IMG/VR virus record: IMGVR_UViG_646862326_000004
DNA: 41,720 bases
DNA from: a virus
Taxonomy: Duplodnaviria; Heunggongvirae; Uroviricota; Caudoviricetes
Strand: one strand, 5' to 3'
The position numbers were made by a program, and so were the translations under genes. The notes beneath the pieces are model-generated. The model was not told the DNA's origin, did no database searches, and was given only the letters and a program-made list of their open reading frames with translations. This document shows, in pieces, positions 18,723 to 19,049 of the stretch (position 1 is the stretch's first letter; every line of letters begins with the position of its first letter).

Positions 18723-19049
18723 ATGAAAAGACGCCTTTTACTACTTTTTCTGTTATCTGTCCTGGCAGTGGGATGCTCGCAGCAAAAAGCTGATGAGCCC
18801 CGGCAATTAGTGACGGTGTATCCACGATATCCGGAATATGCTGCAGCAAATTATATCAAGGGGCTGGTTGAGGTTAAGTTCGATATTGGTGCTGATGGGA
18901 CTGTGACACGGATCGTTTTTCTCCGCTCAGAGCCTCATAATTTGTTTCGTGATGAAGTGGTGAAGGCCATGGCGAAATGGCGATTTGAAAAGAATCGCCC
19001 CTGTCAGGGAGTGAAGAGACAATTTATCTTTACGCCGTCACGTCCTTGA
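18723..19049 (+). CDS. Lipoprotein with TonB C-terminal-like domain
   Basis: 108 aa from ATG 18723 (AGGA 7 nt upstream); lipobox LAVGC; mature region aligns by eye to TonB C-terminal domain (YP-x-x-A, G-V-V-KFD, DG-V, F-EV--AM--WR-E). Confidence 0.55.
   Translation: MKRRLLLLFLLSVLAVGCSQQKADEPRQLVTVYPRYPEYAAANYIKGLVEVKFDIGADGTVTRIVFLRSEPHNLFRDEVVKAMAKWRFEKNRPCQGVKRQFIFTPSRP

What the first reader, a model, noticed from the sequence alone, without database searches (positions are those of the whole stretch)
18723..19049. Lipoprotein with a TonB C-terminal-like domain next to bor
A 108-aa ORF with a lipobox (LAVGC) carries a mature region that aligns by eye to the TonB C-terminal domain. It sits in the bor-to-cos interval where lambdoid phages keep lysogenic-conversion genes. 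A soluble or anchored TonB-C mimic could compete with TonB for TonB boxes of outer-membrane receptors and so block TonB-dependent phages or colicins, or alter iron uptake. It may correspond to a poorly characterised DLP12-region gene; I could not resolve that from memory.
Basis: partly seen in the sequence, partly recalled or inferred. Interest (0 to 1): 0.55.

Follow-up and report, generated by a model that had tools for sequence, protein, structure and literature searches.

The report
Prophage lipoprotein made of TonB's tip
A phage-21-like prophage carries a small, probably outer-membrane-anchored lipoprotein that is a stand-alone copy of the receptor-binding end of TonB; it is in about a fifth of complete E. 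coli genomes, has no tested function, and may block TonB-dependent uptake of phages, colicins and iron.

Summary
Window 18723-19049 (+) encodes a 108-aa protein with a lipoprotein signal peptide (LAVGC, Ser at +2), a roughly 7-residue linker and one TonB_C domain. Pfam scores it 49 bits against a cutoff of 24.6. It is 38-41% identical to E. coli TonB residues 151-231. The AlphaFold model (pLDDT 87) superposes on TonB taken from the BtuB and FhuA complexes at about 1 Å.

The gene lies between bor and cos of a phage-21-like prophage and is identical to phage 21 CPT_21_73. It occurs in 1224 of 5426 complete E. coli genomes, named only "TonB family protein".

It is not a tonB fragment and not a DLP12 gene. 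It belongs to a distinct, unnamed family of 104-133-aa lipoproteins. The family is chromosomal in Klebsiella, Raoultella, Serratia, Pantoea and Rahnella. It is phage-borne in three lineages, each time between the lysis cassette and the packaging genes. dN/dS is 0.10-0.19.

The family keeps TonB's fold core and β3 edge but replaces TonB Arg166 and Arg204.

The most likely mechanism is an outer-membrane-tethered TonB decoy that occupies TonB boxes. This is inferred, not shown. Expression timing is unresolved, and my literature searches found no functional study.

The parts
18723..19049 (+). Coding sequence of the 108-aa TonB_C lipoprotein, stop codon included.
   Evidence: ORF and sequence. Identical to phage 21 CPT_21_73 and RefSeq WP_000830178.1. 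dN/dS is 0.10-0.19 against the 67-71% variants.
18713..18716 (+). Ribosome-binding site AGGA, 7-10 nt upstream of the ATG.
   Evidence: Read from the sequence. The same site is annotated in the phage 21 record.
18723..18776 (+). Lipoprotein signal peptide, residues 1-18: MKRR, a hydrophobic core, and the lipobox AVGC. Cys18 becomes the lipidated first residue of the mature protein.
   Evidence: Read from the sequence. The Cys is nearly invariant across 32 family members. A lipobox, never followed by Asp at +2, is found in nearly all of the ~100-135-aa homologues.
18777..18797 (+). Short linker, residues 19-25 (SQQKADE), between the lipid anchor and the folded domain.
   Evidence: Mean pLDDT is 54-55 over residues 1-20 and 83 over residues 21-30, and the first predicted strand is at residues 28-30. 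Linkers are short throughout the family.
18798..19031 (+). TonB_C domain, residues 26-103, equivalent to E. coli TonB 153-230. Includes the YP motif (Y36, P37) and the predicted β3 strand (residues 94-103).
   Evidence: Pfam and TIGRFAM hits. PDB sequence match. AF2 model with pLDDT above 95 in the domain. Foldseek hits to 1u07, 2gsk_B and 2grx_C.
18568..18705 (+). 45-aa ORF directly upstream on the same strand, possibly co-transcribed. Its coding status is unresolved.
   Evidence: Annotated as hypothetical CPT_21_72, with an RBS, in phage 21. The MVEE start and three Cys are kept in the 70% variants, although the DNA has indels. No Pfam or PADLOC hit.
17949..18242 (-). bor/iss lipoprotein gene, the divergently oriented neighbour.
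   Evidence: Pfam Lambda_Bor, 1e-30. Annotated as iss in the Nissle 1917 prophage.
18420..18531 (.). Conserved non-coding block in the bor / TonB_C intergenic region. It is shared with lambda, HK629 and Stx phages, so it is not specific to the TonB_C gene.
   Evidence: 432 phage records match at 60-100% identity. The HK629 record annotates a minus-strand promoter here. No Rfam family matches.
19812..19813 (.). cos junction, where the right end of phage 21 meets its left end. It marks the downstream limit of the cargo slot.
   Evidence: Window 16746-19812 aligns to phage 21 39865-42931, and window 19813-41720 aligns to phage 21 1-21875.

Best explanation
[quoted passage not shown] There, a roughly 7-residue tether holds a stand-alone TonB C-terminal domain against the periplasmic face of the membrane.

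Proposed mechanism (inferred): the domain uses its exposed β3 edge and the YP groove to capture the TonB boxes of TonB-dependent transporters by β-strand augmentation. It might also capture the TonB boxes of incoming group B colicins. Because it shares a membrane with the transporters and is not coupled to ExbB/ExbD, it would compete with the real TonB without energising anything. A cell expressing it would therefore have damped TonB-dependent uptake. It would become less sensitive to agents that need TonB, such as T1/φ80-type phages, colicins B, D, Ia and M, TonB-dependent microcins and albomycin. The cost would be reduced siderophore and vitamin B12 import.

Shown here: the lipobox, the domain identity, the fold, purifying selection, the family distribution and the conserved position in phages.

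Inferred: outer-membrane localisation, from the +2 sorting rule; binding to TonB boxes; the resulting phenotype; and the time of expression.
For: 1. Domain and fold.
- Pfam TonB_C scores 49.2 bits against a cutoff of 24.6.
- The protein is 38-41% identical to the E. coli TonB C-terminal domain.
- The AF2 model (pLDDT 87.2) superposes on TonB chains taken from the BtuB and FhuA complexes at 1.0 and 0.9 Å, TM-score 0.92.

2. Binding apparatus.
- The equivalents of TonB P161, Y163, P164, F180, G186, F202, W213, R214 and F230 are kept (Y215 as Phe), and a predicted β3 strand spans residues 94-103.
- TonB-box binding is parallel β-augmentation on this sheet, with a Kd near 9 µM (PMC5413942). It therefore depends largely on the backbone.

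3. Placement.
- The lipobox Cys is nearly invariant, the +2 residue is never Asp, and linkers are short throughout the family.
- By the E. coli Lol sorting rule (established knowledge), this puts the domain at the outer membrane.

4. Precedents.
- Overexpressed periplasmic TonB domain inhibits iron import through TonB-dependent transporters, and TonB-box peptides reduce colicin killing and φ80 infection (PMC9841981, citing Howard 2001 and Tuckman 1992).
- T5 Llp and the Cor proteins are outer-membrane lipoproteins that inactivate FhuA from the periplasmic side, and acylation helps by confining both partners to the membrane plane (bioRxiv 10.64898/2026.03.26.714494).

5. The gene is functional and selected in phages.
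- dN/dS is 0.10-0.19.
- It is present in 1224 of 5426 complete E. coli genomes and in 218 IMG/VR contigs.
- Three diverged phage clades (100%, about 70% and about 39% identity) all carry it next to the packaging genes. In every annotated record this is directly after the lysis cassette.

6. Substitutions between the two E. coli variants cluster at TonB-equivalent positions 158-165, 203-205, 218-222 and 226-227. From memory of the 2GRX and 2GSK papers, these regions face the transporter.
Against: - No binding or phenotype data exist. My ten literature searches found no study of this protein.
- The family consistently replaces TonB Arg166 with Tyr and Arg204 with Asp, and also changes L170N, A196S and E203D (only 7 TonB sequences were compared). 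From memory, Arg166 contacts the FhuA plug. The partner surface is therefore not a copy of TonB's.
- Phe230 on β3 is invariant in TonB but only 43% conserved in the family.
- Relatives are ordinary chromosomal genes in Klebsiella, Raoultella and Serratia and in a record labelled Salmonella. Their contexts are unrelated and contain no transporter gene. This is odd for a general TonB antagonist.
- No Fur box within 3 mismatches was found in the window.
- No convincing σ70 promoter lies upstream. The scan found 4 sites in the region against 3.9 expected by chance, none on the + strand upstream, and a more permissive scan gave only weak candidates. Expression in lysogens is therefore unproven. The gene may be made only as part of the late transcript.
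- The C-terminus of the phage's own J protein resembles lambda J (46% identity). The search returned no listed match to φ80, N15, HK022 or T1, the FhuA-using phages known to me. There is thus no sign that the phage blocks its own receptor.
- A link to sitABCD, which could compensate for lost iron uptake, is not strict.
Confidence: 0.4

Rival explanations
1. The fold is the same but the partner is different. The family is an outer-membrane lipoprotein that uses the TonB_C/TolA-type β-augmentation domain to bind something other than the general TonB box. Candidates are one specific transporter, TonB's own C-terminal domain (heterodimerisation), or another periplasmic or outer-membrane protein. 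The phage carries it as a host-fitness or envelope-remodelling factor, alongside its porin, Bor/Iss and, in close relatives, SitABCD.
For: - Family-wide switches at Arg166 to Tyr and Arg204 to Asp, and weak conservation of Phe230.
- Chromosomal, non-phage members have variable contexts and no transporter gene nearby.
- TonB_C domains can bind other ligands. The FusB C-terminal domain, which binds ferredoxin, is among the best structural matches (7zc8, 9hi3).
- The prophage is rich in envelope cargo: a porin at 15076-16218, bor, and sitABCD in phage 21 and Nissle 1917.
Against: - No candidate partner emerges from gene neighbourhoods.
- The parts of TonB needed for strand pairing with a TonB box are all present, so the default partner remains a TonB box.
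Confidence: 0.3
2. It has a late-lytic function. The gene is expressed only from the Q-antiterminated late transcript, together with the lysis genes. It acts at the end of infection, for example by inactivating outer-membrane receptors so that progeny are not lost on debris (as T5 Llp does), or by modulating the envelope around lysis.
For: - It is on the same strand as the late operon, with no terminator-like site between Rz and the gene.
- No clear promoter of its own was found.
- In three diverged phage clades it lies beside the packaging genes, in every annotated record directly after holin, endolysin and spanins.
- PHROG 1267, which it matches end to end (5e-43), is labelled as a lysis-category family.
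Against: - The phage already has a complete Rz/Rz1 spanin pair at 17444-17917 and 17676-17858.
- The PHROG label looks like annotation carry-over, since the family is plainly TonB_C.
- Non-phage chromosomal homologues exist.
- The same slot holds bor, which by established knowledge is expressed in lysogens. The position may therefore only mark a cargo slot. DLP12 and lambda carry other genes there.
Confidence: 0.15
3. It links the outer membrane to peptidoglycan or otherwise stabilises the envelope. The TonB C-terminal domain has been proposed to bind peptidoglycan (from memory: Kaserer et al. 2008). An outer-membrane lipoprotein with such a domain could act like Pal or Lpp and contribute to serum or stress resistance next to Bor/Iss.
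For: - It is probably an outer-membrane lipoprotein, adjacent to bor/iss.
- It has a TonB_C fold.
- Chromosomal homologues with housekeeping-like contexts would fit a structural role.
Against: The linker between the lipid anchor and the domain is only about 7 residues here and is short in all members. By general knowledge of envelope dimensions, that is probably too short to reach the peptidoglycan layer. Nothing here tests peptidoglycan binding.
Confidence: 0.08
4. It is a decaying fragment of a captured tonB gene with no function. Some records annotate it this way ('TonB fragment', 'partial tonB-like membrane protein').
For: - The annotations in the Perceval and ev017 records.
- It covers only the last third of TonB.
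Against: - dN/dS is 0.10-0.19 across variants whose dS is 0.35-2.2.
- It has a purpose-built lipoprotein signal peptide that is conserved across the family.
- It shares family-specific signature residues with chromosomal lipoproteins of other genera and is only about 40% identical to E. coli TonB.
- The intact 108-aa form is seen on at least 1000 contigs.
Confidence: 0.02

Closest known systems
C-terminal domain of TonB (E. coli TonB residues about 150-239; PDB 1U07, 1XX3, 2GSK chain B, 2GRX chain C)
   Same: - Same Pfam domain.
- 38-41% sequence identity.
- Same βαββαβ fold at about 1 Å rmsd.
- Same YP motif, aromatic core and β3 strand, the strand that pairs with TonB boxes.
   Different: - It has no transmembrane anchor and no proline-rich rod, so it has no link to ExbB/ExbD.
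- It is anchored by an N-terminal lipid, probably to the outer membrane, whereas TonB is anchored to the inner membrane.
- It ends at the TonB Thr235 equivalent and lacks the last strand.
- Arg166 is replaced by Tyr, Arg204 by Asp and Gln160 by Tyr.
Plasmid-expressed periplasmic TonB fragments (Howard et al. 2001, as cited in PMC9841981)
   Same: Both are a TonB C-terminal domain present in the periplasm without energy coupling. The artificial fragments are reported to inhibit iron import through TonB-dependent transporters. This is the phenotype predicted here.
   Different: Those fragments are artificial, soluble pieces of E. coli TonB itself. This protein is a natural, diverged, lipid-anchored family carried by prophages.
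T5 Llp and the Cor proteins of φ80, N15 and HK022 (superinfection-exclusion lipoproteins)
   Same: All are small phage-encoded lipoproteins of the outer-membrane inner leaflet. Llp and Cor act on a TonB-dependent transporter (FhuA) from the periplasmic side and block phage entry.
   Different: - There is no sequence or fold relationship. Pfam finds only TonB_C, and no Llp structure is among the 50 matches listed by the fold search.
- Llp acts allosterically on one receptor, the one its own phage uses.
- This gene lies between the lysis and packaging modules, in phages whose packaging modules differ.
- The J protein of this prophage resembles lambda J.
Unnamed family of 104-133-aa TonB_C lipoproteins of Enterobacterales (PGAP 'TonB family protein'; PHROG 1267)
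   Same: Shared size, lipobox, short linker and signature residues: Y39, N43, S69, L74, D77 and F88 in the numbering of the window protein. The window protein is a member.
   Different: - Members in Klebsiella/Raoultella, Serratia, a record labelled Salmonella, and apparently Pantoea are chromosomal and not in prophages.
- The E. coli members and one Klebsiella clade are phage cargo.
- No member found here carries a functional name in any source record, and my literature searches found no study of one.

Membership tests
TonB_C domain (Pfam PF03544 / TIGR01352) | Profile score above the curated cutoff. | tested here: met
   PF03544 scores 49.2 bits against a cutoff of 24.6. TIGR01352 scores 47.4 bits against a cutoff of 27.1.
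TonB_C domain (Pfam PF03544 / TIGR01352) | Fold superposable on solved TonB C-terminal domains. | tested here: met
   AF2 model with pLDDT 87.2. Foldseek: 1u07_A at E=1.7e-8 and TM 0.91; 2gsk_B at rmsd 1.0 Å over 79 columns; 2grx_C at rmsd 0.9 Å over 75 columns.
TonB_C domain (Pfam PF03544 / TIGR01352) | YP motif and the conserved aromatic/Gly core (TonB Y163, P164, F180, G186, F202, W213, Y215, F230). | tested here: met
   The window protein has Y36, P37, F53, G59, F75, W86, F88 and F103 at these positions.
TonB_C domain (Pfam PF03544 / TIGR01352) | Binds a TonB box by β-strand augmentation on β3. | not testable with these tools
   A β3 strand is predicted at residues 94-103. No complex modelling or binding assay was available.
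TonB energy transducer proper (NCBIfam equivalogs NF008080-NF008084) | Full-length architecture: N-terminal transmembrane anchor coupling to ExbB/ExbD, a proline-rich spacer and the C-terminal domain, scoring above the equivalog cutoff. | tested here: not met
   The best equivalog scores 69 bits against a cutoff of 315 and matches only profile positions 156-240. The N-terminus is a lipoprotein signal peptide and the protein is only 108 aa long.
TonB energy transducer proper (NCBIfam equivalogs NF008080-NF008084) | Conserved Arg166 and Arg204 on the transporter-facing surface. | tested here: not met
   The window protein has Tyr39 and Asp77. The family consensus is Tyr (91%) and Asp (71%), against Arg (100%) and Arg (71%) in the 7 TonB sequences compared.
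Small TonB_C lipoproteins of Enterobacterales (unnamed; PHROG 1267) | Lipobox Cys, a single TonB_C domain, about 104-133 aa, and a short linker. | tested here: met
   PHROG 1267 matches at 5e-43 over residues 1-108. The Cys is nearly invariant in 32 sequences. Lipobox scan.
Small TonB_C lipoproteins of Enterobacterales (unnamed; PHROG 1267) | Family-specific residues that differ from TonB (Y39, N43, S69, L74, D76, D77, F88). | tested here: met
   The window protein carries six of the seven; position 76 is Arg.
Llp/Cor superinfection-exclusion lipoproteins | Sequence or fold relationship to Llp or Cor. | tested here: not met
   Only TonB_C is found in Pfam at E<=1. The top PDB fold matches are all TonB, FusB or TolA, and no Llp entry is among the 50 listed.
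Llp/Cor superinfection-exclusion lipoproteins | Binds the periplasmic face of the phage's own receptor and blocks infection. | not testable with these tools
   The J C-terminus is identical to that of phage 21 and 46% identical to that of lambda, and the search returned no listed match to φ80, N15, HK022 or T1. The receptor is not known to me.
o-spanin (Rz1), as the PHROG 1267 label implies | A short proline-rich lipoprotein encoded within or next to the i-spanin gene, forming the spanin pair. | tested here: not met
   The phage has its own Rz (17444-17917) and an embedded Rz1 (17676-17858, with a PPPPP motif). The protein in question is a folded TonB_C domain about 800 bp downstream, beyond bor.
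Bor/Iss lipoproteins | Pfam Lambda_Bor domain. | tested here: not met
   Lambda_Bor hits the neighbouring gene at 17949-18242 (1e-30) but not this protein.
Known anti-phage defence systems (PADLOC-DB 2.0) | Match to any defence-protein profile. | tested here: not met
   No families at E<=1.

The most novel reading that the evidence does not exclude
This would be the first natural TonB decoy. It would be a prophage-encoded, outer-membrane-anchored copy of TonB's receptor-binding domain that occupies TonB boxes. With a single 108-aa protein it would shut down entry of a whole class of TonB-dependent phages, colicins and microcins. About a fifth of complete E. coli genomes carry it, including Nissle 1917, and it has chromosomal cousins in Klebsiella, Serratia and Pantoea that might act as endogenous brakes on TonB-dependent uptake.
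Probability: 0.35. Interest if true: 0.75.

Novelty: new variant of a known kind. Interest (0 to 1): 0.5.

Why it matters
TonB-dependent transporters are the gateway for siderophores, vitamin B12, many phages, group B colicins, several microcins and siderophore-antibiotic conjugates.

A lipid-anchored TonB-domain decoy would be a new and broad kind of prophage-conferred exclusion. It would act on the shared energy-coupling step rather than on a single receptor.

Such a decoy could affect several things:
- phage-therapy host range;
- colicin and microcin ecology in the gut;
- susceptibility to Trojan-horse antibiotics;
- iron physiology of ExPEC strains and of the probiotic Nissle 1917, all of which carry this gene.

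Even if the partner turns out to be something else, a conserved, selected and widespread envelope lipoprotein family with no assigned function is worth one simple set of experiments.

Tried and rejected
- **Fur box.** The 19-mer consensus with up to 3 mismatches gives no hit anywhere in the window.
- **σ70 promoter upstream.** The scan finds 4 sites in 17900-20050 against 3.9 expected, none on the + strand upstream of the gene. A permissive scan of my own finds only weak candidates. No conclusion on expression can be drawn.
- **Riboswitch or leader RNA.** A conserved block upstream looked structured, but no Rfam family matches at E<=1. The block is shared with lambda, HK629 and Stx phages, which carry other genes in that slot, and it overlaps a predicted bor promoter. 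It is therefore not specific to this gene.
- **DLP12 identity.** Rejected. DLP12 has ybcV and ybcW in the slot.
- **Compensation by sitABCD.** All 7 phage records with the identical gene carry sit. However, 20 other sit-positive records do not carry that gene. The Stx1a, JLK-2012 and Lys8385Vzw phages that carry the 70% variant are absent from the sit matches. There is no strict link.
- **Conserved operon partner in chromosomal homologues.** None. Only the Klebsiella and Raoultella loci are syntenic with each other.
- **First AF2 run.** With a 5-sequence alignment it gave a poor model (pLDDT 59.5). It was redone with 32 sequences.
- **Viral structure library (BFVD).** No match better than E=0.13.
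- **AFDB50 fold search.** The library was not available.
- **Howard 2001 paper.** It could not be read directly, so it is cited through PMC9841981.
- **Literature.** Ten searches found no functional study.
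Full report
**1. The observation**

Window 18723-19049 (+) is an intact ORF of 108 codons. It runs from ATG at 18723 to TGA at 19047-19049, with an AGGA ribosome-binding site at 18713-18716. The product begins MKRRLLLLFLLSVLAVGC|SQQ. This is a basic n-region, a hydrophobic core, a lipobox (A-V-G-C) and Ser at +2.

The rest of the protein is a TonB C-terminal domain by every test I ran:
- Pfam TonB_C: E=7e-13, 49.2 bits against a gathering cutoff of 24.6.
- TIGR01352: 47.4 bits against 27.1.
- E. coli TonB C-terminal-domain chains in the PDB: E=1e-14, aligning residues 24-103 to TonB 151-230.

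An AlphaFold2 model built on a 32-sequence family alignment reached pLDDT 87.2, above 95 within the domain. Its topology is β28-30, α38-42, β47-55, β61-70, α76-83, β94-103. It superposes on 1U07 with TM-score 0.91. It superposes on the TonB chains of the BtuB and FhuA complexes at 1.0 Å over 79 columns and 0.9 Å over 75 columns. TolA domain III appears only at E of about 0.1-1.

**2. The setting**

The window is a phage-21-like prophage laid out from int (1-1143, - strand) to the side tail fibre. It aligns to phage 21 (OL657228.1) at 96-99% identity in the main blocks, with the cos junction at 19812/19813.

The gene order around the finding is:
- an nmpC/ompC-like porin (15076-16218, - strand);
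- the S21 pinholin gene;
- the SAR endolysin gene;
- Rz with embedded Rz1;
- bor/iss (17949-18242, - strand; Pfam Lambda_Bor 1e-30);
- a 45-aa ORF;
- the TonB_C gene;
- cos and Nu1.

The gene is 100% identical to phage 21 CPT_21_73, annotated "TonB C-terminal domain protein". It is also identical to genes in ev017, PhiR47_2, PhiR57_1 and PhiR63_2, and 99.7% identical to one in Perceval.

It occurs in 1224 of 5426 complete E. coli genomes, almost always on the chromosome, where PGAP names it "TonB family protein" (WP_000830178.1). The exact protein is recorded on at least 1000 contigs. Nissle 1917 carries it in the icd-integrated prophage together with sieB, a porin, iss and sitABCD.

It is not a DLP12 gene. 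K-12 DLP12 has the same nmpC-essD-rrrD-rzpD-borD module, but ybcV and ybcW occupy the slot.

**3. The family**

Within E. coli there are variants at 85%, about 70% and 67% identity. All are 108 aa long and all have a lipobox.

A profile search of 1.84 billion representative proteins gives thousands of TonB_C hits. Among full-length proteins, most of the best hits are not TonBs. They are short (107-133 aa) single-domain proteins, most with lipoboxes. A second profile search added members from Rahnella, Pantoea and Erwinia, and from a genome labelled Salmonella. None carries a name other than "TonB family protein". The lipobox Cys is nearly invariant and the +2 residue is never Asp.

I compared 35 non-redundant family members with 7 bona fide TonB C-termini.
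- Shared fold core: P153, P161, Y163, P164, A167, G174, V176, D181, G186, P198, F202, V206, A209, W213, R214 and E216.
- Family-specific switches: R166 to Y, L170 to N, A196 to S, M201 to L, E203 to D, R204 to D, and Y215 to F.
- TonB-only conservation: F230 and G234.
- The family ends just after β3 and lacks TonB's last strand.
- The window protein carries six of the seven switch residues.

A crude neighbour-joining tree places the TonBs in their own clade. The gene is therefore a member of a separate lipoprotein family and not a recently captured piece of E. coli tonB.

dN/dS between the phage-borne variants is 0.10-0.19, with dS from 0.35 to 2.2. The protein is under purifying selection.

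**4. Where the family lives**

Chromosomal, non-prophage members are found in several places:
- Klebsiella and Raoultella, in a syntenic position beside lacI and lacZ.
- Serratia grimesii, between ycgN and dsbB/nhaB.
- A genome labelled Salmonella, beside a yegR-family gene.

These contexts share no neighbour and contain no TonB-dependent transporter gene. The Pantoea-type member has no relative in IMG/VR.

Phage-borne members form three clades:
- the phage-21 type;
- the roughly 70% variant in HK97-like lambdoids (Stx1a phages, JLK-2012, Lys8385Vzw);
- a 39%-identical clade in Klebsiella prophages (MK422450 and 24 IMG/VR contigs).

In all three clades the gene is on the late-operon strand and upstream of the packaging genes (HNH/terminase or cos-Nu1). 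In every annotated record it follows the lysis cassette directly.

IMG/VR holds 218 contigs with a relative. Only 15 of 50,697 GenBank phage records have one. BFVD has no significant structural match, so this fold is rare among catalogued viral proteins.

**5. How it most likely works**

Three steps rest on evidence or established rules:
- *Localisation.* This is a lipoprotein without Asp at +2, so the E. coli Lol sorting rule sends it to the outer membrane. This is established knowledge and was not tested here.
- *Tether length.* The tether is only about 7 residues, which pins the domain at the periplasmic face of the outer membrane. That is where TonB boxes emerge.
- *Binding mode.* TonB-box recognition is parallel β-augmentation on the TonB C-terminal sheet, with a Kd near 9 µM (PMC5413942). 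The strand, the YP motif and the hydrophobic core are all retained here.

Two precedents make a decoy plausible:
- Overproduced periplasmic TonB domain inhibits transporter-mediated iron import, and TonB-box peptides reduce colicin killing and φ80 infection (PMC9841981).
- T5 Llp and the Cor proteins are outer-membrane lipoproteins that inactivate FhuA from the periplasmic side. Acylation helps by confining both partners to one membrane.

I therefore consider an outer-membrane-tethered TonB decoy the best single explanation, with confidence of about 0.4. It predicts reduced sensitivity to TonB-dependent phages, colicins and microcins, at some cost in iron and vitamin B12 uptake.

**6. What argues against it, and the rivals**

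- The family-wide loss of Arg166 and Arg204 means the surface facing the partner is not TonB's.
- Chromosomal homologues with housekeeping-like contexts do not look like general antagonists.
- I could not find a Fur box or a convincing promoter. The gene may be made only from the Q-dependent late transcript.
- The upstream conserved block is shared with phages that carry other genes in that slot, and it overlaps a predicted bor promoter. It matches no Rfam family.
- The phage's J C-terminus is lambda-like (46% identity), and the search returned no listed match to the FhuA-using phages I know of. An Llp-style block of the phage's own receptor is therefore unsupported.
- The sitABCD association is not strict.

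The rivals are:
- the same fold with a different partner (0.3);
- a late-lytic role (0.15);
- a peptidoglycan or envelope tether (0.08), disfavoured by the very short linker;
- a dead tonB fragment (0.02), refuted by selection and by family membership.

The PHROG label "Rz-like spanin" for phrog_1267 appears to be annotation carry-over. The phage has its own Rz/Rz1 pair.

**7. Novelty**

The gene and its domain are already annotated in public records, so the observation itself is not new.

I found no functional study in ten full-text searches. No PADLOC defence profile matches it. A 2024 review of superinfection exclusion lists only Cor for receptor inactivation in E. coli.

As an architecture, a lipid-anchored stand-alone TonB_C domain carried as phage cargo is a new variant of a known kind. 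The proposed mechanism would be new if confirmed. The experiments that would decide it are simple and are listed under next steps.

Noticed in passing
window 7470-8222 (-) and 8219-8776 (-): Two genes lie between sieB and the cI-like repressor. They match the PADLOC candidate defence pair PDC-M24B (4.7e-10) and PDC-M24A (4.8e-4). Pfam assigns DUF1828 and, weakly, DUF6978. They may be a prophage-borne anti-phage system in the immunity region.
   Followed up: partly
window 15076-16218 (-): A prophage-encoded general porin (Pfam Porin_1, 2e-151) sits between the Q region and the lysis genes. This is the same slot as nmpC in DLP12 and as the gene annotated 'ompC' in the Nissle 1917 icd prophage. 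With bor/iss and the TonB_C lipoprotein, the prophage carries three outer-membrane proteins as cargo.
   Followed up: partly
window 18568-18705 (+): A 45-aa ORF ends 17 nt upstream of the TonB_C gene. Its MVEE start and three Cys are kept in the 70% variant phages, even though the DNA between them has indels that are not multiples of three. It has no Pfam or PADLOC match. Whether it is a real small protein or a regulatory leader is unresolved.
   Followed up: partly
window 18420-18531: A non-coding block is conserved at about 83% in lambda, HK629 and many Stx phages, with 432 phage records matching. The HK629 record annotates a minus-strand σ70 promoter there, presumably for bor. No Rfam family matches.
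   Followed up: partly
window 41720 (end) and phage 21 21967-25416: The window stops about 90 bp before the point where phage 21 and the Nissle 1917 prophage carry sitDCBA, an iron/manganese ABC importer. All 7 phage records with the identical TonB_C gene also carry sit, but sit occurs without that gene in 20 other records. The 70% variant occurs in phages that are absent from the sit matches.
   Followed up: yes
window 6044-9911 and 13378-16745: The immunity region and the Q-to-porin region do not align to phage 21. Together with a smaller unaligned stretch at 12672-13183, this shows the prophage is a mosaic relative of phage 21 and not phage 21 itself. Unlike phage 21, the window has no tRNA genes.
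   Followed up: partly
window 6163-6744 (+): A SieB superinfection-exclusion protein gene (Pfam SieB, 2.5e-22). Phage 21 does not align to this part of the window.
   Followed up: no
window residues 31-38, 76-78, 91-95 and 99-100 of the protein (about 18813-19022): Amino-acid differences between the two E. coli phage variants cluster at TonB-equivalent positions 158-165, 203-205, 218-222 and 226-227, while the core is invariant. This could reflect diversification of a binding surface or only relaxed constraint on loops.
   Followed up: partly
L009 (Raoultella planticola NZ_JMPP01000070.1, match at 6001-6327): Raoultella planticola has two paralogues. One is of the chromosomal type next to the lac genes (L008). 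The other is of the Klebsiella-prophage type (L009). L009 sits beside a GGDEF/EAL-like gene, an acetyltransferase-like gene and a toxin-antitoxin-like pair. I assigned these neighbour functions by reading the translations.
   Followed up: no
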